64,000 bases of DNA, taken from the NCBI GenBank assembly GCA_036703275.1, contig DATNPK010000082.1, positions 86,130 to 150,129 on the forward strand, read 5' to 3'. This document shows positions 29,559 to 46,200 of this stretch, piece after piece. Position numbers and translations under genes: made by a program. Numbering within the stretch: position 1 is the first letter of the stretch; the number at the start of each line of letters is the position of its first letter. The notes under the pieces are model-generated. The model worked only from the letters and a program-made list of their open reading frames with translations. It had not been told where the DNA came from and did not search any database. The stretch is from Coleofasciculaceae cyanobacterium (GTDB lineage Bacteria; Cyanobacteriota; Cyanobacteriia; Cyanobacteriales; Xenococcaceae).

Positions 29559-30887
29559 TTACTTAAAAGCTCTCTCTAAGAACTTTCGGTTAGCTTTTTT
29601 TACTCTTGAAATCCATCGCCGATGAGTAGACAAAATTGTTGAATAAGGAATTGTCGTTCCAGAGATTAACTCTAGCAAGGAAGGCGAAAAGTATTTGGGA
29701 AAGAGTCGATGCAATATTTGCGCTAACTGCTGCCTGATAATAAACTCGATTATCAGTTTTTTGTTAAATGACGGGAAAACATTGTCGCTTAGTTCTACTA
29801 CAGCATGAGCATCGGACTTTCGCCGCTCAGTAAATTTTGCGCTCGCCATAGCTAGATTATCTGAATATTCATTCAATAGTTCATCAACGATCGCGGCATC
29901 TTCCATAGCTGAATTACAACCCTGTCCAAGAGATGGAGACATCGCATGAGCAGCATCTCCAATGAGTAAAACGCTGTCCTCGTAATGATAGTGACTACAA
30001 ATAATGGTTAAAATACTGGAGACTGGTCGATTCAGAAACTCAATTGCTTCTGATTCCGATATAATTTGACCGATTTCTGGAAAATGTTGCCGAAAGAATT
30101 GTAAAACTTCTGCTGCCGTGGCAAGGGTAACTACAGAATTGCGATCGCGAGGAAAGGTAATTACACCGCTCATCGAGCCATCTAACTGATGCACCATCAA
30201 TACACCAGTACCGTTTTCTAACCTCCAAGCGTGAACATAGCCTGATTTCAATTCATCTGTAGCAGTTTTTGTGGAAGTTTCCACGGAATTAGGCAAGAAA
30301 ATGGATTTGTAGTCAGTGGGAATGTATTTTTGCTCCAACTCAAATAATTCTGTCGAAAGAAATTTTTCTCTAACTATTGATTTCGCTCCATCTGCGCCGA
30401 TTAATAAGTCATAATTAATCGTGATTTCTGCTGTCTGATTCTTTTGAAAGGTTGCTGTTTTGCTGGCAAAATCGAGCTTAGTACATTGATGGTTAAAATA
30501 GAGATTGAGACGACTTTGATCGTAGGTTTTAGTTGACTTTTGTAATAAAGCGATCGTTAATTGAGTGCGGTCAAGAATAAAAATGGGATTTCGCCTGGGA
30601 GTAAATCTTGTCTTACCATTAGTTTGATGAAAAACTGAACCAGTGCTTTCGACGCTCATTCCTGTGACTATTTCTACCAAACCTTCAATGTTACTCAAAG
30701 CATTGATTCCTCTTGGATTTAGCGAGATCAAAAAGGTTCTTGAGCTTGAAAAGACAATGGTTTGGGGGTCGCTACGACGTTCGTAAATATCGACTTTATA
30801 GCGATCGCCACGACGTAATAAATAGTGTGCTAAAAGTACTCCACTGGGCCCTGCACCGATAATTGCGACTGTCTCAACCATAATCAA
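29559..30887 (-). CDS. FAD-dependent aromatic-ring monooxygenase (kynurenine 3-monooxygenase/UbiH-like)
   Basis: 442-aa ORF. It has the dinucleotide fold IIGAGPSGVLLAHYLLRRG. It has the motifs GADGAKSIVR and LIGDAAHAMSPSLGQGCNSAMEDA. Its start lies 23 nt after the HlyD stop. Confidence 0.85.
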   Translation of the reverse strand: MIMVETVAIIGAGPSGVLLAHYLLRRGDRYKVDIYERRSDPQTIVFSSSRTFLISLNPRGINALSNIEGLVEIVTGMSVESTGSVFHQTNGKTRFTPRRNPIFILDRTQLTIALLQKSTKTYDQSRLNLYFNHQCTKLDFASKTATFQKNQTAEITINYDLLIGADGAKSIVREKFLSTELFELEQKYIPTDYKSIFLPNSVETSTKTATDELKSGYVHAWRLENGTGVLMVHQLDGSMSGVITFPRDRNSVVTLATAAEVLQFFRQHFPEIGQIISESEAIEFLNRPVSSILTIICSHYHYEDSVLLIGDAAHAMSPSLGQGCNSAMEDAAIVDELLNEYSDNLAMASAKFTERRKSDAHAVVELSDNVFPSFNKKLIIEFIIRQQLAQILHRLFPKYFSPSLLELISGTTIPYSTILSTHRRWISRVKKANRKFLERAFK

Positions 30888-30910: not shown

Positions 30911-32293
30911 TTACAAGTTGGTGGTGAGTCTGGCTTTTCTAAGCAAAAATTTCATTACCGTTTCTTCTTTAGTAATAATGTCGGTTTGCCCTTCCATACC
31001 CAATTGAATGGCACACTGGTTATTTTCCTTGCCTACAGAACTATTATTTGGCTCAATTGCCACTTCATAAAAAGCTGCACCCGTTTGTTGACTAGGAGCA
31101 TTAGCGGTAGAGGATGTATTAGTATTATCTCGTTGAGGAAAAGCTGCATCGGGAGCAATAGCTGTAAGTGTTCCTTTAAGAGTGCCGTAATCGGAATAAG
31201 GACAAGCAGATACACGCATTTGAGCTACTTGACCTTTTTTAAGTTTACCTATTTCTTTAGCAGGAACTGAAGCTTTGATGGTTAGCTTAGTATCACCAGG
31301 AGCAATTTGAGCGATTTCTTCGCCAGGGCGTACAGTTTGACCAGGATTGCGGAGATTGAGCTTAGAGATAATGCCGTCTGTGGTTGCAGTGATTATAGTT
31401 TGCTGAAGATCGGTATTTACTTGCTGTAGTTCGCGGGCATCTTTGTCTAATTGCTGGTTAATTTCAATTTGTTGTTGAATCAAAGCTTCTTTTTCTTTAT
31501 TTAAAGTAGCAAGACTAGCTTTACCTGTAGCTTCAGCTTCGGTAATTCGAGACGTGGCGATCGCAATTTCCGCATTACTGGGATTTAAAGCAGTTTGTGC
31601 GCCTGCTAATTTAGCTTTGGCTGCTGCGGTTGCCTCCTGTTGCTGCTGTAAGGCTAATTGTACTTCCTCCAATTGATCGCGTGAAATTGCCCCTTCTTTG
31701 GCTGCACTGCGATAACGATTCAGTTTGGTTTGCGCTGCATTTAAAGCCGCTTTGGTTGCTTTTAAGTTTGATTCGGTTTCTTGAACTCCTGCTTTGGTAG
31801 TAATTTGTTTATCTCGATATTCCCGTTCGATGCGATGAAGTTCTGCGATCGCACTAGCGACATTTCCATCAATACGGTCAGTTTCGGCGCTTATTTGACT
31901 ATTAAGAGCATTAATTTGCGCATTAATTTGCACAAGCTGTAATTGTGACTGTTGAACTGTGTTTTGTAATTGACTTTTTTGGGTTTGCAAACGAGAGTCA
32001 CCGATCGTGGCCATGACATCTCCTTGTTTAACAACCTGATTGCTTTTAACGGCAATACTCATTACTCGTCCTTCTGTAGCAGCCTGAACTAGGCGTAATT
32101 CACCTTCAGGACGAATCAGGGCTTGTACTTTGACAGTTTCTTTATATTTAGTCACTGAAGCAATAGGAATCGCCAAGGCAACTACGGCAACGATAAACAG
32201 TCCGCCAAACATAGTCCAACGACTAATCGGGGGCAGAAATTCGTCTTCTTGAACTGTGGGGAGGAATTTGGGATTGGAGTTGTTAGTAAGCAT
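30911..32293 (-). CDS. HlyD-family secretion adaptor (membrane fusion protein)
   Basis: 460-aa ORF. It has an N-terminal TM helix (WTMFGGLFIVAVVALAIPIASV), a long Q/A-rich coiled coil, lipoyl/barrel-sandwich segments and a conserved tail (TDIITKEETVMKFLLRK). Confidence 0.85.
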   Translation of the reverse strand: MLTNNSNPKFLPTVQEDEFLPPISRWTMFGGLFIVAVVALAIPIASVTKYKETVKVQALIRPEGELRLVQAATEGRVMSIAVKSNQVVKQGDVMATIGDSRLQTQKSQLQNTVQQSQLQLVQINAQINALNSQISAETDRIDGNVASAIAELHRIEREYRDKQITTKAGVQETESNLKATKAALNAAQTKLNRYRSAAKEGAISRDQLEEVQLALQQQQEATAAAKAKLAGAQTALNPSNAEIAIATSRITEAEATGKASLATLNKEKEALIQQQIEINQQLDKDARELQQVNTDLQQTIITATTDGIISKLNLRNPGQTVRPGEEIAQIAPGDTKLTIKASVPAKEIGKLKKGQVAQMRVSACPYSDYGTLKGTLTAIAPDAAFPQRDNTNTSSTANAPSQQTGAAFYEVAIEPNNSSVGKENNQCAIQLGMEGQTDIITKEETVMKFLLRKARLTTNL

Positions 32294-32415: not shown

Positions 32416-34626
32416 TTAGCGGTGAGAGAGAGAATGTCCGTTAAGTTCGAATAATGGTCTTTTAGTAGGGATAAAATCATCGAGAAAATCTAAATGATCT
32501 CCAGCAATAGAGCGCAATTGCTCGGGAGTACCCTGAACTTTTAATTGTCCTTTTTCTAGCATCACAACCCAATCGGCACGGACAATTACTCTGGGACGAT
32601 GACTAATTAAAATAGTGGTTTTGCCCCGTCGATGAGCAAATAATTGTTCTAAAACTCTGGCTTCACTGACTGGATCTAATGCGCCAGTAGATTCATCTAA
32701 AATTAAGACTGGGGGATCGGTGACTATCGCTCTGGCGATCGCTAATCGTTGTTTTTGACCACCAGAAAGGTTTGCCCCAAATTCTCCTAATACGGTTTGA
32801 TATTTATCGGGTAGTTCGCTAATAAATTCATCAGCACCAGCGATTTGGCAGGCTTTAACAATTTGCTCGAAGGTGAGATCGGGATAACTGAAGCGAAAGT
32901 TATCAATAATTGAACGACTCCAAAAGTGGGCTTCTTGGGGTAAAAGTACTACCTGTTGGCGCAAACATTCTATAGAAAGATCTTGTTGATTATAAATTCC
33001 GTAGCGAACATTGCCAGATTGTACTGAATATAAACCAGCAATTAGTTTAGCGAGGGTACTTTTACCGCAACCAGATTGACCAATTAAAGCAACTACTTTA
33101 CCGTTAGGAATAGTTAAGGAAAAGTCCTGTAGTAAATCAACTCTTCCCGCATGATGAAAGTTTAAATTATTACAAATAATATCGGTATCGCCTGGAAGTT
33201 CTGCCCAAGGTTTTTTAAAGTCATTTTCATCTTCGGGAGTGGCTTCAATTACTTCTGTTAAACGTTGAATGACTACTTGTGCCGTAATAAATTCATCTGC
33301 TAGTCCAATGGCACTACCTAAAAAGCCGAGAAAATTACCGCTCATGCCGTTATATGCCAGTAATTGACCGATACTGAGATCGCCCTGAATTACCAGATAG
33401 CTGCCCAACCACAATAAACCGACGGAAGTGAAGCTAGACAAAACGCTGGTAATACTACCGCTGTAAAGACTCAGTTTCATCGTATTCCAGCCGAGATTAG
33501 CCAAGCGCCCATAATTACCTTGATATTCTTGCCAAGCTTGGGGTGTAGCCTGAGTGGTTTTGAGTACCTGTACTCCGCGAAACGTTTCGACCAGAAAGCC
33601 TTGATTTTCTGTACCCAAAATGATTTGATTGCGAGTTTTTTGCCGTAGGGCAGGTAGAAAAACTAAGTTGACCAGAGTAACAATAATAAAAGCAACAATC
33701 GAAGCGACGCTGAGTTGCCAACTGTAAAATAGCATTGCTGCCAAGGAAACCACGGCAATAAAAAATTGACTGGGCAAACCAAGCACAATTTGAGATACCA
33801 AACGATTAATCGCACCGACATCCGCAATGCGACTAACTACTTCTCCGCTGCGTCTGCCTTCAAAATAAGAAAGGGGTAAATGTAATAATTTGCGTCCGTA
33901 TTCTAAAATTAGTCCCAACTGCAACTTTTGCCCAAAATGACCAATTAGGTGAGACTGAATTAGCCCAACCACAGTTCTAAACACGTTCATCACGATAACT
34001 GCGATCGCAACTGTAGCCAATAATTGAGTATCTCCTCTGACTAAAACATCATCTGTCAGTAATTGCATCATGATCGGCGAAGCTAGAGACAGCAAACCTA
34101 CCGCAAAATTAATCGCGATCGCCTGGGCTAAAATCCAACGATAGGGTAATACTCTTTTGAGATAGCGTCCAAAGCCTCCTAAACTTCCCTTTTGGTCTTC
34201 TTCTTGTTCGTAAAAGCGACTGTCATCGGGAGTAAGTAACAACATTACTCCATTGCCCCACCCAACGGTTAACTCACGACGAGTCAGATAGCGAATACCA
34301 ACGCCAGGGTCAGCAACAATGTACTTTTTGCCTTTTTTACCGTATAAAACCACCCAATGGTAGCCTTTCCAGTGAATAATAGCTGGTAAAGGAATTTCAG
34401 ATATGCGATCGATAATCTCTGTAGTTGCTTTAACTTGACGCACATTAAAGCCGAAAGCCTCTGCACCTCGGTTCAAACCTAACAAGGTAGTGCCTCTAGC
34501 ACCCGTACCTACAGCTTCTCTGACTCGACTAATCGCAAAGGTGCGTCCGTAATGTTTGGCAACGGTAGCAACGCAAGCAGCCCCGCAGTCTTCTTCGCTG
34601 TGTTGCAATACGATTGGGTGTTTCAT
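32416..34626 (-). CDS. peptidase-containing ABC transporter (C39 cysteine peptidase + 6-TM + NBD)
   Basis: 736-aa ORF. The C39 domain has the catalytic Cys (QHSEEDCGAACVATVAKHYG) and His (IIHWKGYHWVVLYG). It has a TM domain, Walker A GQSGCGKST, signature LSGGQKQRLAIARA and Walker B ILDEST. Confidence 0.9.
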   Translation of the reverse strand: MKHPIVLQHSEEDCGAACVATVAKHYGRTFAISRVREAVGTGARGTTLLGLNRGAEAFGFNVRQVKATTEIIDRISEIPLPAIIHWKGYHWVVLYGKKGKKYIVADPGVGIRYLTRRELTVGWGNGVMLLLTPDDSRFYEQEEDQKGSLGGFGRYLKRVLPYRWILAQAIAINFAVGLLSLASPIMMQLLTDDVLVRGDTQLLATVAIAVIVMNVFRTVVGLIQSHLIGHFGQKLQLGLILEYGRKLLHLPLSYFEGRRSGEVVSRIADVGAINRLVSQIVLGLPSQFFIAVVSLAAMLFYSWQLSVASIVAFIIVTLVNLVFLPALRQKTRNQIILGTENQGFLVETFRGVQVLKTTQATPQAWQEYQGNYGRLANLGWNTMKLSLYSGSITSVLSSFTSVGLLWLGSYLVIQGDLSIGQLLAYNGMSGNFLGFLGSAIGLADEFITAQVVIQRLTEVIEATPEDENDFKKPWAELPGDTDIICNNLNFHHAGRVDLLQDFSLTIPNGKVVALIGQSGCGKSTLAKLIAGLYSVQSGNVRYGIYNQQDLSIECLRQQVVLLPQEAHFWSRSIIDNFRFSYPDLTFEQIVKACQIAGADEFISELPDKYQTVLGEFGANLSGGQKQRLAIARAIVTDPPVLILDESTGALDPVSEARVLEQLFAHRRGKTTILISHRPRVIVRADWVVMLEKGQLKVQGTPEQLRSIAGDHLDFLDDFIPTKRPLFELNGHSLSHR

Positions 34627-34751
34627 GTTTTTGCAGTAAGTAATTTAAGATCTGGTTTTTTGAACTATCTGTATAGTAGAAATCAAATCCCTAAAAAACG
34701 TCTGAAAAACGTCTCGAACTGCACCTAGACTTAATGGATAAATTCCTGCTG

Positions 34752-34793
34752 ACTTTAGTAGATGAACTAAGTTAATTTCTCTATGACTAAAGT
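34752..34793. promoter_or_regulatory. inverted repeat ACTTTAGT-N26-ACTAAAGT upstream of the exporter operon (candidate operator)
   Basis: ACTTTAGT is at 34752-34759 and ACTAAAGT at 34786-34793, 126-167 nt upstream of the exporter start. The same pair recurs at 36804-36844 and 38213-38252. Confidence 0.45.
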
Positions 34794-34873
34794 TAGAATT
34801 GAAAAAACCAAGGTGCGTCAATCTTCAATAACACACCCAATGCTATTTCCTTAAGTTCAGTCAAATAAACATT

Positions 34874-35059
34874 TTAATCTAGGATTTCTGCAAAATAATT
34901 TGCTTTGACATATGCAGAACCTTCAGTAAAGCCTCGACGATAATAAAGCAAAGCAGTAAACAGTAAATGTTTGATTGGGTCGAGATTTTTATGTATAGCG
35001 TTTTGCCATCCTAAACTGTAAAGCTCATAGCTCAAATAGCCAACGCGCTCAATCTGCAT
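34874..35059 (-). CDS. hypothetical small protein
   Basis: 61-aa ORF between the precursor stub and the exporter. I recognise no motif, so coding status is uncertain. Confidence 0.2.
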   Translation of the reverse strand: MQIERVGYLSYELYSLGWQNAIHKNLDPIKHLLFTALLYYRRGFTEGSAYVKANYFAEILD

Positions 35060-35188
35060 TCTATACCTCCATTTTTTCTTAAATGATCTTGAGTATTAAA
35101 TTGATTTATTAGGTTACGAGCGATCGCATTTAATAACGCGCGATCGCGCTTACTTCTACGCTTGTTTTGTTGAACTATGTTATGGATT

Positions 35189-35251
35189 TTAAAGAGGAAA
35201 TTTCCATTCCAAATTATAGAGAGAATTGGACTGATTGTTGATCTTAGTCAT
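35189..35251 (-). pseudogene. truncated stub of a GG-leader precursor gene
   Basis: It reads MTKINNQSNSLYNLEWKFPL*. The DNA closely matches the 5' end of the 37637-37990 gene through ...CAGTCCAATTCTCTCTATAA and then diverges. It keeps the family-specific upstream region. Confidence 0.55.
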
Positions 35252-35470
35252 TGTTTTTATCCTAATAATTTGGGTTTACTTTAGTTATCTACCAGGCAAG
35301 AGTTGATAAAACAATTAGTAGTTAGTTAATTAACTTTTGCTTTGGTTTTTAACTATCTTGATCATAAAAAATAGAACTACTAAAAACATCTGAAATAAGT
35401 CCCTAACCTTAATCAACTAAATATATATACGGCTATAGCACTTTAGTTATAGTTAAATCGCCACCAGATT
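35252..35470 (-). repeat. conserved precursor 5' region, copy A
   Basis: It shares blocks with 36617-36860 and 37991-38260. The shared blocks are AGTTATCTACCAnGCAA, AACTTTTGCTTTGGTTTTTAACTA (35332-35355), AACATCTGAAA, ATCAACTAAAT and ACTTTAGT. Confidence 0.6.
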
Positions 35471-35487
35471 AGCTGCAAACCATCCAC

Positions 35488-35515
35488 AAAAAAAAGACTC
35501 TTTGAGAGAAGAGCC
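35488..35515 (-). terminator. rho-independent terminator after the DUF3455-like gene
   Basis: The minus-strand RNA is GGCUCUU-CUCUCA-AAGAGUC followed by U8. It lies about 80 nt past the stop at 35597. Confidence 0.55.
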
Positions 35516-35596
35516 TTGCTGAAATATTCTAGTCACAGAATTAGAGTGTGGTTGCGGAATAAGTTGGCAAAATTCAGTGTATTAAATCTAATAATT

Positions 35597-36148
35597 TCAT
35601 TGAGTAGTGGGACGGTAGAAGTAATAATCGGCGGTGTAAGGCACGGCAATTTCCGTATTTTGACGATCGCGATCGCAACTTTCTTTAGGCATTACACCAC
35701 CAGTTGTATGCAAACGCTGAATCCATTTTACGCTTGCCAATCTGCCATTACCTTGAGCAGATTCTATTTGCAGCAAAAACCAAGGAATTGAGTCATTTGA
35801 GACAATCTCCTCAGCTTTTATACCTGCGGTGATTTTACTACCATCGTTTGCTTCCCAGGTTGGGCCAGCGTAATGCGTTCCCAAAACTTCGCCCTGAGAA
35901 TTAAATAGCTTGGCATCAGGAGCTTTTAAAGTCCACTCAAACTGCGATCCTGGGTTTGTATCCTGATTGCAAGTATAAATTTGCGCTCCTTGAGCCTCAG
36001 CTTTAAGTATGAGTTGTTGCCCAGTTGGCACTTGCAAATTTTTGGTTACTTGAGGATTGTCGTTAAGGTTACCACGAGCGACACTGCATAGCCCTAGGCT
36101 AATTACAGAGGCAATGACGCTAATATTTATCCATGAAAATTTCTGCAT
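35597..36148 (-). CDS. secreted DUF3455-like protein
   Basis: 183-aa ORF. It has a signal peptide (MQKFSWINISVIASVISLGLCSVARG). Its pattern, QIYTC ... W.L.AP.A.LF ... G.HYAGPTWEANDGS ... IPWFLL ... VKWIQRLHTTGG..P ... VPYTADYYFY, matches my recollection of DUF3455. Confidence 0.6.
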   Translation of the reverse strand: MQKFSWINISVIASVISLGLCSVARGNLNDNPQVTKNLQVPTGQQLILKAEAQGAQIYTCNQDTNPGSQFEWTLKAPDAKLFNSQGEVLGTHYAGPTWEANDGSKITAGIKAEEIVSNDSIPWFLLQIESAQGNGRLASVKWIQRLHTTGGVMPKESCDRDRQNTEIAVPYTADYYFYRPTTQ

Positions 36149-36262
36149 AAAAATTCTTGTGTTAATTGTTATTAAACAGTTCTGGGGAAAGATTTCGTAT
36201 GGGCGATCGCAGTTATTAGAGTTATTGCTAAAGTTTTAAGCTGATCTTTTTACAACTTTGGA

Positions 36263-36616
36263 CTATGGCAGGGCTTTAAAAGAGGATATTTCCTTGCCAA
36301 AATCACCAGTATTAACAGTTGTACCTGGCCCTACGTCAATGTATTTGCCCCCAAAATTTATATCCTCATAGAATCTCCATGTTTTATCATTAAAAATAGC
36401 AATAGATCCAGTAGCATCATTAAAACCAAATTCCCTTAAATCTTCTATTTTTTTATTACTGGCAAATCAAAATCCTTGTTTGTTTGATTCGGAGTATAAA
36501 GTCACATCTGTAACTGTTACTGCTCCACCAGAAATAGCAGCAGCAGATTCAGGAGAAATATCTTAAACACATTCAACGTTATGGAAATATTTTGATTGAT
36601 TATTGTTTTTAGACAT
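36263..36616 (-). pseudogene. GG-leader beta/gamma-crystallin-like precursor with two in-frame stops
   Basis: The 118-codon frame reads MSKNNNQSKYFHNVECV*DISPESAAAISGGAVTVTDVTLYSESNKQGF*FASNKKIEDLREFGFNDATGSIAIFNDKTWRFYEDINFGGKYIDVGPGTTVNTGDFGKEISSFKALP*. The stops are TAA at 36563-36565 and TGA at 36467-36469. Confidence 0.7.
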
Positions 36617-36860
36617 AAGTTTTTTCCTAATGATTTCAGTTGATTTTCTTGGTTTACCAAATAAAAGTCTTTGAAATAATTAGTAGTTAGGTAATCAACT
36701 TTTACTTTGGTCTTTAGCCATGTTTATATTAAAATTTTGAGTCAAATAAAGCATCTAACAAAGGTCTTTAATCTCTATCAACTAAATGAATATACGCTCT
36801 AATACTTTAGTTGTTTAGCCAAGTAGATTTTCTATCACTAAAGTCATAGTCATAATATGA
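36617..36860 (-). repeat. conserved precursor 5' region, copy B
   Basis: It contains AACTTTTACTTTGGTCTTTAGCCA (36697-36720), ATCAACTAAATGAATATAC and the ACTTTAGT/ACTAAAGT pair. Confidence 0.55.
36804..36844. promoter_or_regulatory. inverted repeat ACTTTAGT-N25-ACTAAAGT (candidate operator)
   Basis: ACTTTAGT is at 36804-36811 and ACTAAAGT at 36837-36844. The right half-site context TTCTAT(C/G)ACTAAAGT is shared with the 34752-34793 copy. Confidence 0.4.
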
Positions 36861-36876
36861 AATTAACAGTAATAAG

Positions 36877-36905
36877 AAAAAAAAGACCCTTAAACGAAAG
36901 AGTCT
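36877..36905 (-). terminator. rho-independent terminator after the second precursor gene
   Basis: The minus-strand RNA is AGACUCUU-UCGUUU-AAGGGUCU (8-bp stem with one G-U) followed by U8. It lies about 83 nt past the stop at 36988. Confidence 0.55.
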
Positions 36906-36987
36906 TGCTTGAATATTGTGTTGTGTAGATAAAATTATGGATGGCGCGATCGTCATCGGTATTTATTAAGGTTGTATGGTTTCCATA

Positions 36988-37422
36988 TCATAGACGGATC
37001 AACTTAACGGAAGTAATCCTATCATCATTAGCCCCAAGATTATAACTTCCTGGTGCTAAAAAACCTGTATCACCACCTCCGTCATCAGTAAAGAACTGCC
37101 ATGTGCCCCTGTTAACTATGATTGATGAGACGGTATCGTTAAAAGTAGTTTCCCCACCATCAGGAAGCACACCAATGTTAACAAACTCTCCAGCAGCCCC
37201 GTTAGCTGTTAGCACGTCACCTGATAGACCCAATGCCTGTCCTTGCCCGTTAGGGTCTTTGTGGAAAACTATATCTGCACCTATAGCACTGGAATCAAAA
37301 GTTGGCCCTGCAGCACCAATTGAAACTGCACCACCAGAATAAGAAGCAGCAGTTTCAGAGGAAATATCTTGAACAAATTCGATGTTATGGAGGGAATTGG
37401 ATTGAGTGTTAATTTTAGACAT
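36988..37422 (-). CDS. GG-leader precursor 2: 31-aa double-glycine leader + 113-aa Gly/Asp-rich beta/gamma-crystallin-like core
   Basis: The leader is MSKINTQSNSLHNIEFVQDISSETAASYSGG followed by AVSIG.... The core carries Greek-key-like signatures (FNDTVSSIIV; GTWQFFTDDGGGDTGFLAPGSYNL...DRITSVKLI). Confidence 0.7.
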   Translation of the reverse strand: MSKINTQSNSLHNIEFVQDISSETAASYSGGAVSIGAAGPTFDSSAIGADIVFHKDPNGQGQALGLSGDVLTANGAAGEFVNIGVLPDGGETTFNDTVSSIIVNRGTWQFFTDDGGGDTGFLAPGSYNLGANDDRITSVKLIRL

Positions 37423-37636
37423 TCTTTTTCTCCTAAGTGTTTGAGTTGATTTGAGTTATCTACTGAGCAATAGTTATTGAGATAATTAGTAATCAGCTCA
37501 AGACTATTTGCTCTAAACAATACAGAACAGTTAAATATGTAGAAGCGTATTCTATACGTCCTAATAAAATTGAGTGGTTTCACATGAGGTGCGATCGCTT
37601 TCGGAGATGGTGTAGCAAATCGCGTTATTTTTTAGA

Positions 37637-37990
37637 CTAATCTATAGCCTGGAAAGAAGAGATTGATAATCCAAACTCGCCAACATCCATAGCCGTATTT
37701 GGTCCTACATCTATATAATTTCCCTGAAAATTGGCATCTTCGTAGAATCTCCAAGTCTTACCATTATTAATCGAAACAAATTGAGTAGCGTCGTCAAAAC
37801 CATATTCGCTTAAATCTTCTATTGCTTTATTGCTATTAAAGCTAAATCCTTGATTGCATGGTTCAGAAGTTAAACTCACATCTGTAACTGTAACTGCACC
37901 ACCAGAATAAGAAGCAGCAGTTTCAGAGGAAATATCTCGAACAAATTCGATGTTATAGAGAGAATTGGACTGATTGTTAATCTTAGACAT
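37637..37990 (-). CDS. GG-leader precursor 1: 31-aa double-glycine leader + 86-aa single beta/gamma-crystallin-like domain
   Basis: The leader is MSKINNQSNSLYNIEFVRDISSETAASYSGG followed by AVTVTD.... The core contains KTWRFYEDANFQGNYIDVGPNTAMDVGEFGLSISSFQAI. This fits the (Y/F/W)xxxx(Y/F)xG ... S Greek-key signature. Confidence 0.75.
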   Translation of the reverse strand: MSKINNQSNSLYNIEFVRDISSETAASYSGGAVTVTDVSLTSEPCNQGFSFNSNKAIEDLSEYGFDDATQFVSINNGKTWRFYEDANFQGNYIDVGPNTAMDVGEFGLSISSFQAID

Positions 37991-38260
37991 TATTTTTCTC
38001 CTAAGTGTTTGAGTTGATTTGAGTTATCTACCAAGCAATAATTATTGAGATAATTGGTAATTAGTCAATGAACTTTTGCTTTGGTTTTTAACTATTTTTA
38101 TTTTATGAATTAGAGCAAAACAAAACATCTGAAAAAAGTCTTGTGATAAACATCAGCTAAAGAAATAGATTGATTTTGACGTTTGTCCAGGTATTCGGTA
38201 AAACTTTCTCAAACTTTAGTCTTGGTTAGCAATTATTTCTTCGCACTAAAGTGATAATTT
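37991..38260 (-). repeat. conserved precursor 5' region, copy D (shared divergent promoter region with the kinase gene)
   Basis: It contains GAGTTATCTACCAAGCAA, AACTTTTGCTTTGGTTTTTAACTA (38071-38094), AACATCTGAAAAAAGTC and the ACTTTAGT/ACTAAAGT pair. Confidence 0.6.
38213..38252. promoter_or_regulatory. inverted repeat ACTTTAGT-N24-ACTAAAGT between precursor 1 and the histidine kinase (candidate operator)
   Basis: ACTTTAGT is at 38213-38220 and ACTAAAGT at 38245-38252. It lies 51-90 nt upstream of the kinase start and about 225 nt upstream of precursor 1. Confidence 0.45.
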
Positions 38261-38302
38261 TTTATGACCTTATGAGTATTTAGGGTTTAATAAAGGAACA
38301 AA

Positions 38303-39529
38303 TTGTTGTCTCCAGCTAAAGTTATGAACTCTTGGTGGAAAATTCAACCCAATCCTTTTCGCTTTTTATTGCTCGCCGAATGGATAATGCTAGGCAGTTG
38401 CGGTTCTCTAGCTATCATCGAAGCTTTTCAAGACCAAACTATACCGGTTGAACATATTTTAATTCTAGTTTTGCTCGGTTCTATGGGTTTAGCTTTGCCT
38501 AATGGTTCTCTTGCTTTTCGGGTGATTTATACGACTATCGAAATCGGCTTAATTGCCATTGGTACATCATTAGGCTATCTCCATATCTTGCCTACTTTAT
38601 ATTTAATTGTTGTTATCCGTAGTTGTTTTTTGTTTGAATCTGTTGGTCGTTGGGTAGTTGCTGGTTTAGTCTTGATCCTTTTTTTGCTTGATGAGCTACG
38701 TTATGCCCAGCGAGCTTTACCAGAATTGCCTGAAGAACAGTTTGAATTTATGATGCATTTGATGGCACAGACTTTGGTTTTTGGTTTAGGAATCTTTTTT
38801 GTCTTGCAGCTGGTCAATAAATTACTAGTTGAACGTCAAATAAAGCAACAACTTGCTGTAGCCCACCAACAATTACAGGACTATTCCCAACAAATTGAAG
38901 ATCTTGCTGCCGTACAAGAACGCAATCGCATCGCTCGCGATATTCATGACTCCCTGGGACACGCCTTGACATCCCTTAATATTCAACTGCAAACAGCGGT
39001 TAAACTCTGGCAAAAAAATCCTGCTCAAGCCCATCCTTTTCTGGCACAAGCTCAAAAATTAGGAGCGATCGCTATGAAAGAAGTACGTCAATCAGTTGGC
39101 ACATTGCGAGCAGATCAGGCAGATGAACAGCCTTTAAAATCAAAAATTTGGGCTTTAATCGACAATCTTCGTTCTGGTACTGGTCTAACTATTCGTAGCA
39201 AAATTGCTCATTGTCCTCAACTATCACCCCAAATAGAAAATACTATTTATCGTATTGTCCAGGAAGCTTTGACGAATATAGCTAAGTATGCACAAGCTAC
39301 AGAAGTAGAAATTAAGCTTAAGGTAATTGAAACAAAAGTATATCTAAGTGTTCAAGATAACGGTAAAGGATTTGAATTAAATCAAAACAAGACTGGATAT
39401 GGACTACAGGGTATGCAAGAAAGAATTAATGCTGTTGAAGGTTGCTTGCAAATTCAAACTTCGCCAGGGGCTGGCTGTCGAATTTTAGTAGAAATTCCTT
39501 TATCGAGAGTTATTACCTTGTCGCCTTAA
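38303..39529 (+). CDS. membrane sensor histidine kinase (HisKA_3/NarL-type) with about six TM helices
   Basis: 408-aa ORF. About 175 hydrophobic N-terminal residues show no obvious extracytoplasmic domain. It has an H-box ERNRIARDIHDSLGHALTSLNIQLQ and HATPase_c boxes (QEALTNIAKYA; DNGKGF; GYGLQGMQER). Confidence 0.85.
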   Translation: MLSPAKVMNSWWKIQPNPFRFLLLAEWIMLGSCGSLAIIEAFQDQTIPVEHILILVLLGSMGLALPNGSLAFRVIYTTIEIGLIAIGTSLGYLHILPTLYLIVVIRSCFLFESVGRWVVAGLVLILFLLDELRYAQRALPELPEEQFEFMMHLMAQTLVFGLGIFFVLQLVNKLLVERQIKQQLAVAHQQLQDYSQQIEDLAAVQERNRIARDIHDSLGHALTSLNIQLQTAVKLWQKNPAQAHPFLAQAQKLGAIAMKEVRQSVGTLRADQADEQPLKSKIWALIDNLRSGTGLTIRSKIAHCPQLSPQIENTIYRIVQEALTNIAKYAQATEVEIKLKVIETKVYLSVQDNGKGFELNQNKTGYGLQGMQERINAVEGCLQIQTSPGAGCRILVEIPLSRVITLSP

Positions 39530-39655: not shown

Positions 39656-40303
39656 ATGATTCGCCTTTTGCTAGTAGACGATCAAAGTCTTGTTTGTCAG
39701 GGATTAGCTGCAATGTTATCACTGGAAGAAGATTTAGAGATTCTTGGTACGGCTAATAACGGTCAAGCAGCTATTGATTTGGTGGCTAAGAAACAGCCAG
39801 ATGTGGTTTTAATGGATGTGCGAATGCCGGTGATGGATGGCAGAGAAGCCACGAGAATTATTGTTCAACAATTTCCCCAAGTCAACGTAATAGTTTTGAG
39901 TACTTTTGATGACGATGAATATATTGCTGATGCTATCAAAGCGGGAGCAAAAGGTTATTTACTCAAAGATATGCCCTGCGAAGAACTAGCCCAGGCAATT
40001 CGACTTGTTCATAGTGGCTACACTCAATTAGGTCCTGGATTGATGGAAAAATTGCTTCAAGGAGTCTCCCAACCTAATGCTGAGCAATCCAAGTCCCTGG
40101 CAGCAGAATTAAGTCAATTGACTAAAAGAGAACAAGAAGTGTTGTCCTTAATAGGTAAAGGTCATACCAATCGTGAAATTGGTCAAAAACTTTACGTTAC
40201 AGAAGGAACTGTTAAAACCCACGTTACTCACATTCTCAACCGTCTTAATCTAAGAAACCGATCGCAGATCGCCATTTATGCCAATTCTCTGGGGCGTTGC
40301 TGA
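39656..40303 (+). CDS. response regulator, REC + LuxR/NarL-type HTH
   Basis: 215-aa ORF. It reads MIRLLLVDDQ ... DVVLMDVRMPVMDG ... LLKD, then LTKREQEVLSLIGKGHTNREIGQKLYVTEGTVKTHVTHIL. Confidence 0.9.
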   Translation: MIRLLLVDDQSLVCQGLAAMLSLEEDLEILGTANNGQAAIDLVAKKQPDVVLMDVRMPVMDGREATRIIVQQFPQVNVIVLSTFDDDEYIADAIKAGAKGYLLKDMPCEELAQAIRLVHSGYTQLGPGLMEKLLQGVSQPNAEQSKSLAAELSQLTKREQEVLSLIGKGHTNREIGQKLYVTEGTVKTHVTHILNRLNLRNRSQIAIYANSLGRC

Positions 40304-43230: not shown

Positions 43231-46200
43231 ATGCTGCCTTCAATTTTTGAAACCTGTATTCCTAGAGAAGAAATACTAGCAGGAGAACTTTCTGTCGATC
43301 TGTTCGCTGCCAAACTACGATCTGTAGTAGAAGGAAAAGCCCCTCAGATATATCAGAATAGTGAAAGTTTCTTTGCCAATACCTTTGCTACAGATGGGAT
43401 TAAAACCCTTATAAGTGAAGTATTTAGCAGGTTAACAGGCAAGTCATCAGGTTCACCTGTGATCAGGCTAGAAACTAGTTTTGGTGGTGGTAAAACCCAT
43501 GATGAGATAGCTTTATGGCATATCTGTAAAGAAGGGAACAGAATTCAAGGTTTAGAAAGATTTGTTGAACCGAATTTAATTCCCGATCGCACTGTACAAG
43601 TTGCCGCAGTTGATGGTAGAGATTTAGACCCCGAAAATGGTATTCATCATCCTAACGGCATCATCACTACGACTCTTTGGGGAGAAATTGCTTATCAAGT
43701 TGGTGGAGTAGAAGGGTATCGATTATTACAGGGAAGCGATCGCTCTGGTATCAGTCCTGGTACGGATGTTTTAGAAAGATTATTAAATGGTGAACCGACG
43801 GTAATTATCTTAGATGAGATTGCCCGTTATTTACGTGCAGCGAAGGCAAAACAGATTGGCAGAAGCGATCTTGCGGAACAGGTTGTAGCATTTCTATTTT
43901 CCTTGATGGATTTAGCAGGAGCTTGTAATAACTTAGTTTTTGTCTATTCCTTGGCTTCAGCTTCCGATACCTTTGCAGACGAGACAATGGAGTTGCAAGA
44001 GTTGATTCGTGCTTCTGCCAGACAGGAAAGAGTATTGAGTCCTTCTACTGATGTTGAGGTCTACAATATTGTCAAACAAAGGTTGTTTAAGAGTGTAGAT
44101 AGTCAGGCTGCATCACAAGCTGCATCTGAATATTTGAGTGTTTATCGTAGTACTCGCGTTAATCTTCCCGATGGTTGCAAAGACGCTAGTTACTCTCAAG
44201 CGATCGCTCAAAGCTATCCGTTTCATCCTGAATTATTTAATCTTTTAACTAAAAAAATTGCTTCCATACCAGAGTTTCAGAGAACTAGGGGGGCATTACG
44301 GTTATTAGCCCAAGTCGTCCAGCATCTTTGGCAAAATCAAATAGAAGATACGCCAATTATTCATCCCCACCATATTCCTGTGGGCAAAGAAAAGCAAATT
44401 ACCGACGATTTAACTTCTCGTTTACAACGCTCATTAATGCGATCGCCGATTGGGGCTGATATATATAATCCTAGTGGGAAACAGGCTTATGCTCAAATCC
44501 ATGACCGTCAATGGCAAGACGCAGGTAAGCCACCGTTTTCTAGTTGGGTGGCACGGACAATATTTTTAAATTCCTTGACTCAAGGTACTTCATCAGGGAT
44601 TCGTCGTACAGAGTTGAACTTATCTCTTTTAACCCCTGGATTAGAAGCAAGTTTCATCGACCAAGCACTAGATAAATTAGCTCAAGTAGCTTGGTATTTA
44701 GATAATGACCCGATTACAACTCTTGCTAGGTTTAAAGAAGAGCCTTCAATCAACAAAATTGTTACCGAAGAAAAAGAACAGGTAGGACGTACTGAAGCGA
44801 AGGATTACTTAAGAAGTCGTCGTGATAGTATTTTTGCCAAGAAAATTTTTACTCCCGTATTTGCTCCTGAAAGTCCTGGAGATGTAGATGATATTCCCGA
44901 TGAGATTGCTTTGTGTTTAATTGACTTTAATGAGGCAACGGTTAAATCGTCTACCGATAGTCCCCCAGATTTAGTGCAGCAGATTTTTGATAATACGGGC
45001 GAATCAGGAAAGTTTCGGGTGTTTCGCAATCGTCTCTTGTTTTTGGTCGCTAATCATCAAGAACTTGATAAAGCCATCGATAATGCTAGAGAATATCAAG
45101 CAATCCGAAATATCTTGGGGAGTCAGACCAGATTAGAAGATTTATCAGAAACTCAGCAGAAACAGCTTAGGGAAAGAGAAGGCGCAAAAGACTTAGAGGT
45201 AAGAATTTCTCTCACAAATGCCTATCGTCATCTATTTTATCCAGCCAAAGATGATGTCAAGGCTCCCAATGGTTTGATGCACTATACTTTACCTCCTCAA
45301 GACTCCAGCACCGTTAAAGGTAAAAATAATCAGCAGGATGTCATCCTTAAGGCGCTTAAGGACTGCGAAAAAATTAGAGCGGAAGATAAAGCAAGTCAAC
45401 CATTTGCACCAGCTTATATTTTGCAAAAGGTATGGTCAAAGGGATTGGATCATTGGTCAACTAAAGCTTTAAGAGATGCGTTTGCCAAGGATTTAAGTCT
45501 CAATATTTTACTCCCAGGGGAATTAACCACTCTACGGGAAACTATTCGCAATGGCTTACAAGATGGTCAGTGGGATCTAAAAATTGGAGACAAAGTTTAT
45601 ATCAAAACTGATGGCACATTAACGTTTCCTGACACCATTGAATTTAGCGATCGCTTTATCTTATATCGTCGGGGAATTCTGCAACCACCTGAACCGAGAG
45701 TTATTGAATTAAATGCTCAGGTGATGTCTAATTCAGAGACAGAAAAACCTGTTAGGATTCGCTGGAAAGCTAAGGGAGCATTAAAGATTAGTCTCCATCA
45801 GGATGGTACTTTAATAACCCAACGGGGCTTACAAGCTGCCGAACCTGCGTCGGCAGACAGCCCCTCAGAATTTCGTCCTTCTGATGAATATGAAACCAAG
45901 ATTAGGGCAAACACTATTTTTCGCCTAGTTGCTGACTACGGAAACGGAGAAACCGCAGAGCAAGAAACTAAGGCTATTGTTGCCCAATCTGGCAGGGTTA
46001 AAGCTACTGGAGGAAATTATGATCCTGGCAATGACCATGAAATCACTGGCAGCATCTTTGAACATCGATCGCCCCTGATCGAATTAGATGGCACTGTTAA
46101 TAAAGTTTTCAATGATTTAGCCGATCTGATAGGCGATCGCAAAATCAAAGAGATCAAATCTCTGGAAATCTCAGTAGACCAAGTGATTGACTATCGTAAG

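What the first reader, a model, noticed from the sequence alone, without database searches (positions are those of the whole stretch)
36988..37990. Near-identical 31-aa leaders ending in Gly-Gly fused to completely different cores
The two intact leaders are MSKINNQSNSLYNIEFVRDISSETAASYSGG and MSKINTQSNSLHNIEFVQDISSETAASYSGG, 28 of 31 identical. The pseudogene keeps ...DISPESAAAISGG. Counting back from the GG, hydrophobic or small residues fall at -4 (Y), -7 (A), -12 (I) and -15 (V), with Glu at -9. That is the spacing expected for double-glycine leaders recognised by C39 peptidase domains. After GG-AV the cores diverge in sequence and length (86 vs 113 aa). Both keep Greek-key signatures (KTWRFYEDANFQGNY...ISSFQAI; GTWQFFTDDGGGDTGF...ITSVKLI). 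A conserved leader with diversified cargo, plus decayed extra copies, suggests a cargo family under diversifying turnover. That is typical of antagonism or signalling factors.
Basis: seen in the sequence. Interest (0 to 1): 0.7.

Follow-up and report, generated by a model that had tools for sequence, protein, structure and literature searches.

The report
Gly-Gly-leader crystallin cargo for peptidase exporter
A cyanobacterium carries tandem genes for small crystallin-fold proteins that all start with the same 31-residue Gly-Gly leader, just upstream of the peptidase-containing ABC exporter that most likely cuts off the leader and secretes them; this is an undescribed cargo family within a well-known export system.

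Summary
Two intact minus-strand genes (37637..37990, 117 aa; 36988..37422, 144 aa) share a 31-aa leader ending in Gly-Gly, 28/31 identical. Two decayed copies lie nearby.

The cores are not "completely different". They are unalignable as DNA and 28% identical as protein, but both are single beta-gamma-crystallin domains.

A C39-peptidase ABC exporter (PCAT) with intact Gln/Cys/His/Asp lies 2.4 kb downstream on the same strand, followed by a membrane-fusion protein. A histidine kinase and response regulator lie upstream. An orthologous PCAT follows the cargo genes in all 10 loci with enough flank.

The leader defines about 80 protein clusters (Pleurocapsales, Nostocales). GG, Ala-7, Glu-9, Asp-13 and Val-15 are nearly invariant. 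About two thirds of cargos are crystallin-type; a few are unrelated.

One homologue carries a Sec signal instead of the leader and has no PCAT nearby. Its homology begins exactly at the residue after GG.

The 144-aa type shows core dN/dS of 0.5-1.2, against 0.05-0.3 for its leader. The 117-aa type is under purifying selection.

Verdict: a real, undescribed member of the double-glycine/PCAT export kind. Cleavage and extracellular role are untested.

The parts
37637..37990 (-). Intact cargo gene 'A117' (117 aa): 31-aa GG leader plus an 86-aa single beta-gamma-crystallin domain. The mature protein would be about 9.4 kDa, pI 4.05, with degenerate Ca motifs.
   Evidence: ORF. Pfam Crystall 28.3 bits (cut-off 25). 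AF2 core pLDDT 80-90 and residues 1-33 below 50. Foldseek top hit 2bv2, TM 0.85. Mass and pI.
37898..37990 (-). Leader of A117: MSKINNQSNSLYNIEFVRDISSETAASYSGG. Predicted cleavage is after Gly31.
36988..37422 (-). Intact cargo gene 'B144' (144 aa): 31-aa GG leader plus a 113-aa beta-gamma-crystallin domain with an N-terminal extension and two canonical N/D-N/D-x-x-S/T-S motifs (FNDTVSS, NDDRITS). It is 100% identical to a protein of a Coleofasciculaceae MAG.
37330..37422 (-). Leader of B144: MSKINTQSNSLHNIEFVQDISSETAASYSGG.
37295..37512 (-). Homogenised tract of B144 (5' UTR plus leader), 85% identical to 37863..38080 of A117. Codons 19-33 are identical, including at synonymous sites. Homology stops abruptly after GG-AV.
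   Evidence: the repeat finder family D1..
36263..36616 (-). Pseudogene 'psi3': a paralogue of the 117-aa type (64% aa identity) in one frame, with in-frame stops at codon 18 (TAA) and codon 50 (TGA).
35181..35251 (-). Remnant 'rem4': the first 15-16 leader codons joined, out of frame, to the last ~11 codons of a crystallin core (internal deletion).
36617..36812 (-). Conserved ~200-nt upstream module of psi3, including the inverted repeat AACTAAA-N19-TTTAGTT at 36780..36812.
35252..35448 (-). Conserved upstream module of rem4, including the inverted repeat AACTAAA-N20-TTTAGTT at 35415..35448.
37991..38170 (-). Upstream module of A117. The inverted repeat is degenerate here. A TTGACT-16-AATAAT promoter-like site lies at 38068..38041.
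36883..36906 (-). Terminator-like hairpin after B144. There is none between A117 and B144, so the two may be co-transcribed. A similar hairpin lies at 35494..35517, after the DUF3455 gene.
   Evidence: the repeat finder family D4.
35597..36148 (-). DUF3455 protein (183 aa) with a Sec-type signal, not a GG leader. It is the second gene of the psi3 unit. Its membership of the system is uncertain, and it is not found in the other loci.
34874..35059 (-). Conserved 61-aa protein of unknown function. It has no TM segment and no Pfam match. It is embedded in cargo arrays in four loci.
32416..34626 (-). PCAT (736 aa): C39 peptidase domain (Gln8, Cys14, His90, Asp106), ABC transmembrane domain and ATPase. 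This is the predicted leader peptidase and exporter.
   Evidence: Pfam. PCAT1 (4ry2) E 3e-105 with aligned catalytic motifs. Residue positions. Orthologues 75-93% identical in other loci.
30911..32293 (-). HlyD-family membrane-fusion protein (460 aa), the periplasmic adaptor of the exporter.
38303..39529 (+). HisKA_3 histidine kinase (408 aa), divergent from A117. It has about 5-6 hydrophobic segments in residues 21-176 and no large external domain.
   Evidence: Conserved next to the cargo arrays in L002, L004, L008 and L014.
39656..40303 (+). NarL/LuxR-type response regulator (215 aa).

Best explanation
This is a type-I-like secretion locus built around a peptidase-containing ABC transporter (PCAT). 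The tandem genes encode precursors made of two parts. The first is a family-specific 31-residue double-glycine leader, consensus MSKINNQSNSLYxIEFVQDISxETAAxYSGG. The second is a small single beta-gamma-crystallin domain.

Proposed mechanism (inferred, not shown):
- The unstructured leader docks in the cytoplasmic C39 domain of the PCAT encoded at 32416..34626.
- It is cut after Gly31.
- The 113-aa protein has two canonical calcium-binding motifs and probably binds Ca2+ outside the cell.

The promoter, 5' UTR and leader behave as a cassette. The cassette is duplicated, locally homogenised by recombination between paralogues, and found on different cargos. Arrays gain copies and lose them, leaving a pseudogene and a remnant.

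The neighbouring HisKA_3 kinase and NarL-type regulator plausibly control the array through a conserved inverted repeat about 165-197 nt upstream of cargo start codons (inferred).

The extracellular role is not established. My best guess, at about 40%, is interaction or antagonism factors (bacteriocin-like, inhibitor-like or anti-grazer). This rests on the fast-evolving 144-aa subfamily and on bacteriocin-like peptides that share the leader. A calcium-binding surface or matrix role is nearly as likely. The confidence given (0.78) is for the export-and-cleavage mechanism, not for the extracellular role.
For: Shown by tools:
- Leader and cores are as described.
- Both cores are beta-gamma-crystallin domains: Pfam, AF2, Foldseek 2bv2/1hdf/1nps/3hz2, and a PDB profile hit at E 2.4e-12.
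- The leader is the only low-confidence (pLDDT<50) segment, and confidence rises at or within two residues after GG: residues 1-33 for A117, 1-30 for B144.
- The PCAT has aligned Gln/Cys/His/Asp and is closest to PCAT1. An HlyD-family protein lies next to it.
- An orthologous PCAT lies directly downstream of leader-bearing genes in 10/10 distinct loci with enough flank, with a recognisable MFP gene in 9 of them (L016 has too little flank). These are the window, L001, L002, L004, L009, L010, L012, L013, L015 and L016.
- GG is invariant in 45/45 homologues.
- A leader-only profile finds 80 clusters, almost all matching at residues 1-31.
- In the leader logo, GG is about 100%, Ala-7 98%, Glu-9 96%, Val-15 94%, Asp-13 93% and Ile/Leu-12 96%.
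- Leader identity is about 67% regardless of core identity.
- 51 of 79 representatives match Pfam Crystall.
- The same leader occurs on unrelated cores, for example P0048 next to a crystallin copy in L002.
- P0141 has a Sec signal instead of the leader and no PCAT within 6 kb. It is 71% identical to the GG-leader protein P0139, which has a PCAT next door. Their homology starts at AFA|V in P0141 and GG|L in P0139.
- dN/dS: leaders of the 144-aa type 0.05-0.3, and 144-aa-type cores 0.5-1.24.
- Homogenised tract: the leader plus AV is 93/99 nt identical with codons 19-33 identical, while the cores are at the random level.
- The inverted repeat occurs twice in the window against 0.03 expected, and at the same distance from cargo genes in L002, L005, L006 and L011.
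Against: - No experimental evidence for cleavage or secretion exists, here or in the searchable literature.
- The leader departs from the textbook motif. It has Ala rather than Leu at -7 and Glu at -9 rather than -8. It matches no curated leader model in Pfam or NCBIfam.
- No outer-membrane factor was identified next to the locus; the rest of the window was not searched.
- For the antagonism guess: the window's cargos are acidic (pI about 4), unlike classic cationic bacteriocins. No membrane immunity protein is evident. The 117-aa type evolves under purifying selection, dN/dS 0.1-0.3. Identical tandem duplicates in L001 and L004 fit a dosage need as well as they fit an arms race.
- The dN/dS values rest on 5-8 short sequences with the NG86 method and are noisy.
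- The two intact genes have the degenerate version of the upstream inverted repeat. The perfect copies precede the two decayed genes.
Confidence: 0.78

Rival explanations
1. The export route is the same, but the mature crystallin domains are structural. They would be calcium-binding components of the sheath, cell surface or biofilm matrix, comparable to Myxococcus Protein S, Synechococcus EbfG proteins or Faecalibacterium MAM. They would not be antagonistic factors.
For: - B144-type cores keep two canonical Ca2+-binding motifs, with FND invariant and SS in at least 90% of sequences.
- The window's cargos are strongly acidic, net charge -8 and -10.
- The 117-aa type is under purifying selection, dN/dS 0.1-0.3.
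- Identical tandem duplicates in L001 and L004 suggest a dosage need.
- There are precedents for GG-leader proteins with structural roles: EbfG/PteB (PMC4997328) and MAM (PMC12184118).
- No membrane immunity gene is seen.
Against: - B144-type cores have dN/dS of 0.5-1.24.
- Cargo charge across the family is bimodal, with about 30% of cores basic at pI 9-12. This is odd for a single structural role.
- Short hydrophobic or cationic peptides share the leader (P0048, P0095).
- Pseudogenes and remnants indicate that individual copies are dispensable.
Confidence: 0.3
2. The cargos, or one of them, are secreted signals sensed by the adjacent HisKA_3 kinase and NarL-type regulator. This would be a quorum-sensing-like three-component circuit of the kind found in class II bacteriocin and competence loci.
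For: - The kinase and regulator lie next to the array in the window, L002, L004, L008 and L014.
- The kinase has multiple membrane segments and no large external domain. By my own knowledge this resembles peptide-sensing kinases such as ComP.
- A conserved inverted repeat upstream of cargo genes could be the regulator's operator.
Against: - The Nostocales loci have the same PCAT, membrane-fusion protein and cargo but no kinase or regulator within 10 kb.
- The cargos are 9-11 kDa folded domains, not short peptides.
- No small GG-peptide gene is found in the window.
- Many paralogous 'signals' per locus is not parsimonious.
Confidence: 0.1
3. The shared N-terminus is not a cleaved export signal. 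It is just the residue of recent duplication or gene conversion, or an uncleaved functional N-terminal arm, and the crystallins are cytoplasmic.
For: In the window, the leader and 5' UTR of the two intact genes are nearly identical at synonymous sites too, which indicates recent recombination. No experiment shows cleavage.
Against: - The leader is conserved across orders (Pleurocapsales to Nostocales) under purifying selection, dN/dS 0.05-0.3, while cores diverge.
- GG is invariant.
- PCAT linkage holds in 10/10 loci.
- A Sec signal replaces the leader precisely at the GG boundary in a homologue.
- The leader is predicted disordered.
Confidence: 0.05
4. The genes are RiPP precursors of the NHLP or Nif11 style. 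The leader would recruit modifying enzymes before export.
For: A conserved leader with variable cores and a PCAT is the architecture of prochlorosin-type systems (Wang et al. 2011, PMC3140520). An FAD-dependent monooxygenase gene lies directly after the membrane-fusion protein gene at 29559..30887.
Against: - No NHLP or Nif11 leader model matches.
- The cores are confidently folded 86-113-aa crystallin domains, not Cys/Ser/Thr-rich peptides.
- The monooxygenase is absent from all the other loci.
- No lanthionine synthetase, cyclodehydratase or radical-SAM enzyme was noted in the gene tables seen for the related loci.
Confidence: 0.02

Closest known systems
Double-glycine leader peptides processed by PCATs: ComC/ComA, CtA/PCAT1 (PDB 4ry2), colicin V CvaC/CvaB-CvaA-TolC
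   Same: - The N-terminal leader ends in GG, with hydrophobic or small residues at -4, -7, -12 and -15.
- The exporter has a catalytically intact C39 domain, and PCAT1 is the best PDB match (E 3e-105).
- An HlyD-type adaptor is present, as in Gram-negative systems.
- The cargo genes lie immediately upstream of the transporter.
   Different: - The leader is longer (31 aa), with Ala at -7 and Glu at -9, and matches no curated leader model.
- The cargo is a folded, acidic beta-sandwich domain of 9-11 kDa, not a short cationic peptide.
- No membrane immunity gene is evident.
EbfG1-4 / PteB of Synechococcus elongatus PCC 7942 (Parnasa et al. 2016, PMC4997328)
   Same: A cyanobacterial system with several small paralogous GG-motif proteins exported by a C39-peptidase transporter. 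Their role there is in the biofilm matrix, not as antibiotics.
   Different: The sequences were not compared here. That paper does not mention crystallin. The leader family here is distinct and is found in Pleurocapsales and Nostocales.
MAM / PCAT of Faecalibacterium duncaniae (PMC12184118)
   Same: A precursor of about 135 aa has a GG leader predicted to be cut by an adjacent PCAT. The mature cargo is about 113 aa, and the leader has low pLDDT in AlphaFold.
   Different: MAM is helical and forms a surface lattice in a Gram-positive-type envelope. The cargo here is a beta-gamma-crystallin, and the exporter includes a membrane-fusion protein.
Microbial single-domain beta-gamma-crystallins: Ciona crystallin 2bv2, M-crystallin 3hz2, Protein S 1nps, spherulin 3a 1hdf, clostrillin 3i9h
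   Same: The double Greek-key fold matches, with TM up to 0.85. The B144 type keeps both N/D-N/D-x-x-S/T-S calcium-binding motifs.
   Different: As far as I know, those proteins use Sec signals, are domains of larger proteins, or are intracellular. None is described with a double-glycine leader. The A117 type has lost the canonical Ca motifs.
NHLP / Nif11 leader families and prochlorosins (Haft 2010; Wang et al. 2011, PMC3140520)
   Same: One conserved leader is fused to many divergent cores, with multiple precursor genes per locus and PCAT export in cyanobacteria.
   Different: There is no homology to those leaders and no conserved modifying enzyme. The cores are folded domains rather than modified peptides.
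SMPI (Pfam Inhibitor_I36) and killer-toxin-like crystallin-fold proteins (own knowledge for the toxins)
   Same: These are small secreted single crystallin-fold proteins with inhibitory or antagonistic activity. 32 of 79 leader-bearing representatives also match Inhibitor_I36, best E 3.9e-10.
   Different: The window's two proteins match I36 only weakly, E 0.069 and 0.9. No activity is known.

Membership tests
PCAT substrates with a double-glycine leader | N-terminal leader ending in Gly-Gly (or GA/GS), without a Sec-type hydrophobic core | tested here: met
   SYSGG lies at residues 27-31 in both genes. GG is invariant in 45/45 homologues and about 100% of 112 unique leaders. The leader is polar and acidic, median pI 4.3.
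PCAT substrates with a double-glycine leader | Conserved hydrophobic or small residues at -4, -7, -12 and -15 (amphipathic recognition helix) | tested here: met
   -4 is Y/I/V/C, -7 is Ala 98%, -12 is I/L 96%, -15 is Val 94%, and further I-18 and L-21 are each 87%. Two deviations: Ala, not Leu, at -7, and the acidic residue is at -9, not -8.
PCAT substrates with a double-glycine leader | Cognate ABC transporter with a catalytically competent C39 domain encoded nearby | tested here: met
   32416..34626(-): Peptidase_C39 at 118.8 bits, ABC_membrane and ABC_tran. Gln8/Cys14/His90/Asp106 align with PCAT1. The arrangement is conserved in 10/10 loci.
PCAT substrates with a double-glycine leader | Leader removed at GG during export | not testable with these tools
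   Indirect evidence only. The disorder/fold boundary lies at or within two residues after GG. A Sec-signal homologue begins its homology at the post-GG residue.
Beta-gamma-crystallin superfamily | Sequence match to PF00030 or to solved crystallins | tested here: met
   A117 scores 28.3 bits, above the cut-off of 25. B144 scores 23.6 bits, just below it. The B144 family profile hits 2bv2 at E 2.4e-12.
Beta-gamma-crystallin superfamily | Double Greek-key beta-sandwich fold | tested here: met
   AF2 cores have pLDDT of about 80-90. Foldseek top hits are all crystallins, with target-normalised TM of 0.85 for A117 and 0.73 for B144.
Beta-gamma-crystallin superfamily | Calcium-binding motif N/D-N/D-x-x-S/T-S in each Greek key (microbial Ca-binding subclass) | tested here: inconclusive
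   B144 has 2 of 2 motifs (FNDTVSS, NDDRITS). A117 has 0 of 2. Across crystallin-like cargos, 49 have two motifs, 9 have one and 41 have none. Binding itself was not tested.
Class II (unmodified) bacteriocins | Small, usually cationic membrane-active peptide with an adjacent membrane immunity gene | tested here: not met
   The mature proteins are 9.4 and 11.4 kDa with pI about 4.05. The neighbouring small ORFs (61 and 58 aa) have no TM segment and no family match.
NHLP / Nif11 RiPP precursors | Leader homologous to nitrile hydratase alpha or Nif11, plus associated modifying enzymes | tested here: not met
   No NCBIfam or Pfam leader hit at E<=1. The only nearby enzyme, an FAD monooxygenase, is not conserved in other loci.
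Three-component pheromone circuits (GG-peptide + kinase + regulator) | Dedicated small GG-leader pheromone gene with an adjacent kinase and regulator | tested here: inconclusive
   The kinase and regulator are adjacent in 5 Pleurocapsales-type loci but absent from the Nostocales loci. No short GG-peptide gene is found in the window.

The most novel reading that the evidence does not exclude
Beta-gamma-crystallin domains are a dedicated, modular cargo class of a cyanobacterial PCAT clade. The promoter, UTR and leader cassette would let cargo modules be swapped, as in polymorphic toxin systems. The calcium-binding crystallin fold would stay unfolded in the low-calcium cytoplasm and fold only outside the cell, acting as an RTX-like calcium ratchet for export. 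The fast-evolving 144-aa subfamily would act as a new kind of proteinaceous antagonist or inhibitor against competitors or grazers.
Probability: 0.2. Interest if true: 0.7.

Novelty: new member of a known kind. Interest (0 to 1): 0.45.

Why it matters
PCAT exporters are mostly studied with short bacteriocins and pheromones, and the substrates of most cyanobacterial PCATs, HetC among them, are unknown. Here a PCAT clade has an obvious, abundant and conserved substrate family made of folded calcium-binding-type domains.

This offers three things:
- A tractable model for how PCAT systems that include a membrane-fusion protein handle 9-11 kDa proteins. Pleurocapsa sp. PCC 7319 is a cultured strain carrying about six MSKINNQ-leader cargo genes (plus two with a second GG leader) in one locus.
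- A defined 31-residue leader that could serve as a secretion tag in cyanobacteria.
- A first export route and genomic context for bacterial beta-gamma-crystallins, whose functions are largely unknown.

The annotation gain is immediate. These genes are currently labelled 'hypothetical' or 'beta/gamma crystallin-related' with no hint of secretion.

Tried and rejected
The exhaustive profile search replaced it.
- The search for related loci with the full alignment failed because no stretch was conserved enough. The leader alignment worked but used a single pattern, so only 11 genome loci came back. Taxonomic breadth is therefore a lower bound.
- No NCBIfam model matches the leader, either cargo, the 61-aa ORF or the DUF3455 protein.
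- Rfam found nothing in 34500..38400 at E<=1.
- RNAalifold predicted 0 base pairs across 16 copies of the conserved 5' module. The module is therefore not a structured RNA. A riboswitch or leader-RNA idea is rejected.
- The sigma-70 promoter scan is not above chance, 11 found against 14 expected. The TSS is left open.
- The FAD monooxygenase downstream of the membrane-fusion protein gene was considered as a modifying enzyme. It is absent from all other loci and was rejected.
- Literature searches found nothing relevant. They combined double-glycine, PCAT, C39, crystallin and cyanobacteria, and also used literal leader strings. The supplements of Wang et al. 2011 hold no matching sequence as text.
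- Within-genome concerted evolution of leaders was considered as a general rule. It holds for A117/B144 in the window. By eye, it does not hold in L005 or L006, where co-resident leaders differ more. It is reported only as a local event.
Full report
**1. The observation**

The minus strand carries two intact ORFs, 37637..37990 (117 aa, 'A117') and 36988..37422 (144 aa, 'B144'). Their first 31 residues differ only at N6T, Y12H and R18Q.

Both leaders end in SYSGG and are followed by AV. After that the sequences diverge.
- Core DNA identity is 45.7%, indistinguishable from shuffled DNA at 45.6 +/- 1.3%.
- Core protein identity is 28%, against 20 +/- 6% for a shuffled core.

A third copy at 36263..36616 reads in a single frame but has stops at codons 18 (TAA) and 50 (TGA). 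A fourth copy at 35181..35251 keeps only the first ~16 leader codons joined out of frame to the last ~11 core codons.

A leader HMM run over every stop-to-stop segment of at least 25 aa finds no further copy in the 64-kb window.

The window is cyanobacterial. The HIP1 octamer GCGATCGC occurs 72 times against 0.44 expected. B144 is 100% identical to a protein of a Coleofasciculaceae MAG.

**2. What the cores are**

A117 passes Pfam's Crystall threshold (28.3 against 25 bits). B144 falls just short at 23.6 bits. A profile of 32 B144 relatives hits the Ciona beta-gamma-crystallin at E 2.4e-12, along with dozens of lens and microbial crystallins.

AlphaFold2 models give confident cores (pLDDT about 80-90). 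Residues 1-33 of A117 and 1-30 of B144 score below 50.

Foldseek returns only crystallin folds at the top. These include 2bv2, spherulin 3a, the Protein S N-domain and archaeal M-crystallin, with target-normalised TM of 0.85 for A117 and 0.73 for B144.

So the cores are very divergent paralogues of one fold, not unrelated proteins.
- B144 keeps both canonical calcium-binding motifs (FNDTVSS and NDDRITS). These are nearly invariant in its family.
- A117 has lost them.
- Both mature proteins would be acidic: 9.4 kDa and 11.4 kDa, pI about 4.05.

**3. Context**

On the same strand, 2.4 kb downstream of B144, lies a 736-aa protein with Peptidase_C39, ABC_membrane and ABC_tran domains. Its best solved relative is PCAT1 (4ry2, E 3e-105). 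The Gln, Cys, His and Asp motifs align, at Q8, C14, H90 and D106.

An HlyD-family membrane-fusion protein follows at 30911..32293.

Divergently upstream of A117 are a HisKA_3 kinase and a NarL/LuxR-type regulator. The kinase has about 5-6 membrane segments and no large external domain.

Terminator-like hairpins follow B144, the DUF3455 gene and the 61-aa ORF, but none lies between A117 and B144. The array therefore reads as three repeat units: [A117+B144], [pseudogene+DUF3455] and [remnant+61-aa ORF].

**4. Relatives**

A117 has 43 homologues and B144 has 34. They are mostly from Pleurocapsa and Waterburya MAGs, and include Pleurocapsa sp. PCC 7319. Where named, they are called 'beta/gamma crystallin-related'. 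GG is invariant in all 45 aligned sequences.

A 31-column leader profile was searched against 1.84 billion representative proteins. It finds 80 clusters at E<=1e-3, nearly all matching at residues 1-31, with lengths of 34-152 aa.

Of 79 representatives, 51 match Pfam Crystall and 32 match the related Inhibitor_I36.

A few carry unrelated cores.
- P0048 is an 84-aa protein with a hydrophobic core. It sits next to a crystallin copy in a Pleurocapsa contig.
- P0095 is short and cationic.

In 112 unique leaders the most conserved positions are G-1/G-2 (about 100%), A-7 (98%), E-9 (96%), V-15 (94%), D-13 (93%) and I/L-12 (96%). I-18 and L-21 are each 87%, and +1 is usually Ala. This is a 3-4-residue hydrophobic periodicity, consistent with an amphipathic recognition helix. 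The selection of sequences was partly pattern-based, so the percentages are somewhat circular.

Leader identity averages 67% whether the cores are under 30% or over 60% identical.

**5. Synteny**

An orthologous PCAT, 75-93% identical, lies directly downstream of the leader-bearing genes in every locus with enough flank, and a membrane-fusion protein gene is recognisable in all of them except L016, whose flank is too short to tell. These loci are:
- the window;
- a 6.09-Mb genome (L001, three cargo genes);
- Pleurocapsa (L002);
- PCC 7319 (L004), which has about six cargo genes with this leader, two with a second GG leader, and a remnant;
- four Nostoc loci, one Scytonematopsis locus and a metagenome contig.

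The five loci without a PCAT all end at a contig edge within 2.7 kb.

The kinase and regulator accompany the Pleurocapsales-type loci but not the Nostocales ones.

**6. A natural leader swap**

P0141 has the same core family as P0139, 71% identical over 103 residues. It begins with a classical Sec signal, MYMNNFRRFIVLMGLALTLLVGSFTAPAFA. It lies among integrase genes with no PCAT within 6 kb. P0139 has the GG leader and a PCAT immediately downstream.

The homologous region starts at V31 in P0141, right after AFA. In P0139 it starts at L32, right after GG.

This is the strongest in-silico evidence on two points:
- the leader is an export signal;
- the mature protein begins after Gly31.

**7. Evolutionary dynamics**

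Between A117 and B144, a tract from about -95 to +99 is 85% identical (repeat finder D1). Codons 19-33 and the 40-odd bases before the ATG are identical, including synonymous sites. Similarity then drops to random. This is the signature of recent recombination or gene conversion with a breakpoint at the leader/core junction.

A ~200-nt upstream module precedes most cargo genes in Pleurocapsales-type loci, including the non-crystallin one. It shows no conserved RNA structure and no Rfam hit.

The module contains the inverted repeat AACTAAA-N19/20-TTTAGTT. In the window this occurs twice, against 0.03 expected. It lies 164-197 nt upstream of leader start codons, both here and in L002, L005, L006 and L011. 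It is a candidate operator.

Oddly, the perfect copies precede the two decayed genes, and the copy before A117 is degenerate.

Pairwise NG86 estimates give the following dN/dS values:

| Region | dN/dS |
|---|---|
| A117-type cores | 0.1-0.3 |
| B144-type cores | 0.5-1.24 |
| B144-type leaders | 0.05-0.3 |

The samples are small and the values noisy. The contrast between subfamilies is nonetheless clear.

**8. Interpretation**

These are double-glycine precursors for the adjacent PCAT and membrane-fusion protein system. The leader acts as a portable module that is conserved, duplicated and locally homogenised.

The functional half is open.

For antagonism or inhibition:
- relaxed or diversifying evolution in the B144 type;
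- turnover of copies;
- bacteriocin-like peptides on the same leader;
- I36-like members.

For a structural, calcium-binding role:
- acidity and the Ca motifs;
- purifying selection on the A117 type;
- identical duplicates that suggest dosage;
- no membrane immunity gene;
- precedents such as EbfG (PMC4997328) and MAM (PMC12184118).

Signalling through the neighbouring two-component system is possible, but that system is not conserved in Nostocales.

**9. Novelty**

The kind of system is textbook: a GG leader with a PCAT. Cyanobacterial GG precursors up to about 150 aa were catalogued in 2011 (PMC3140520). Bacterial beta-gamma-crystallins are also well known.

I found no paper or curated model linking the two, or describing this leader.

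I therefore rate it a new member of a known kind. It is of moderate interest, chiefly as a ready-made model for PCAT export of folded-domain cargo and as a first export context for bacterial crystallins.

Noticed in passing
window 22453..26327 (+): A second PCAT-type locus that appears decayed. It has an HlyD-family gene (22453..23646) and a 415-aa ORF with a cNMP-binding-like N-terminus plus a C39 domain (24524..25771, HetC-like 'long' type). After these come only fragments of the ABC ATPase (25680..25904, 26082..26327). The transmembrane domain is missing.
   Followed up: partly
window 27193..28600 (-): A frameshifted or interrupted gene for a repeat protein with recurring G-x-G-N/D-D-x-I-I-G motifs (ORFs 27655..28410 and 27193..27462, plus an upstream frame). 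It has no Pfam match. It may be a decayed secreted repeat protein associated with the neighbouring transporter remnants.
   Followed up: partly
window 35415..35448 and 36780..36812; L002 1733-1765; L005 9804-9837 and 11987-12019; L006 9061-9093, 9806-9839 and 11389-11422; L011 8834-8867 and 9804-9836: A perfect inverted repeat, AACTAAA-N19/20-TTTAGTT, lies at a fixed distance of about 164-197 nt upstream of cargo start codons. It occurs twice in the window against 0.03 expected. In the window the perfect copies precede the two decayed genes, and the copy before the intact A117 is degenerate. It is a candidate operator for the adjacent NarL-type regulator.
   Followed up: partly
window 34874..35059 (-); L002 3016..3186; L005 10562..10720; L006 11024..11206: A conserved 61-aa protein of unknown function sits inside the cargo arrays. 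It forms six clusters, all 61 aa long and 63-92% identical. It has no TM segment and no family match. It could be an accessory, chaperone or immunity-like factor.
   Followed up: partly
L003 5170..5571 (P0141) compared with L016 2265..2669 (P0139): The same crystallin core family is found once with a Sec signal peptide, next to three phage-integrase-family genes and with no PCAT. It is found once with the GG leader and a PCAT downstream. This is a natural swap of export signal at the exact cleavage boundary.
   Followed up: yes
L004 10840..11229 and 12343..12738 (Pleurocapsa sp. PCC 7319): Two genes in the same array carry a different, more canonical GG leader (MTKQNQALFTKLTPEQAAVIEGG). Their cores are Asp-rich and non-crystallin, 129 and 131 aa. 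In the Nostoc loci, crystallin cores also occur behind two further GG-leader variants (MSNINNHGVDMNN...IQGG and ...KNCFEAISxIKELNDEDAAxCSGG). One PCAT clade therefore seems to serve several leader types.
   Followed up: no
window 29559..30887 (-): An FAD-dependent monooxygenase gene (FAD_binding_3) starts 24 nt after the membrane-fusion protein gene on the same strand. It is absent from all related loci, so it is probably not part of the system.
   Followed up: yes
window 34645..34821 (-): A 58-aa ORF directly upstream of the PCAT start is 93% conserved in L002 and partly conserved (72% over 29 aa) in PCC 7319. It is unclear whether this is a gene or a conserved 5' untranslated region of the PCAT.
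   Followed up: no
whole window: The HIP1 palindrome GCGATCGC occurs 72 times against 0.44 expected, a hallmark of cyanobacterial genomes. G+C content is 39.4%.
   Followed up: yes
window 43231..46512 (+): A large (1093 aa) DUF499-domain protein lies just beyond the two-component genes. It was not examined further.
   Followed up: no
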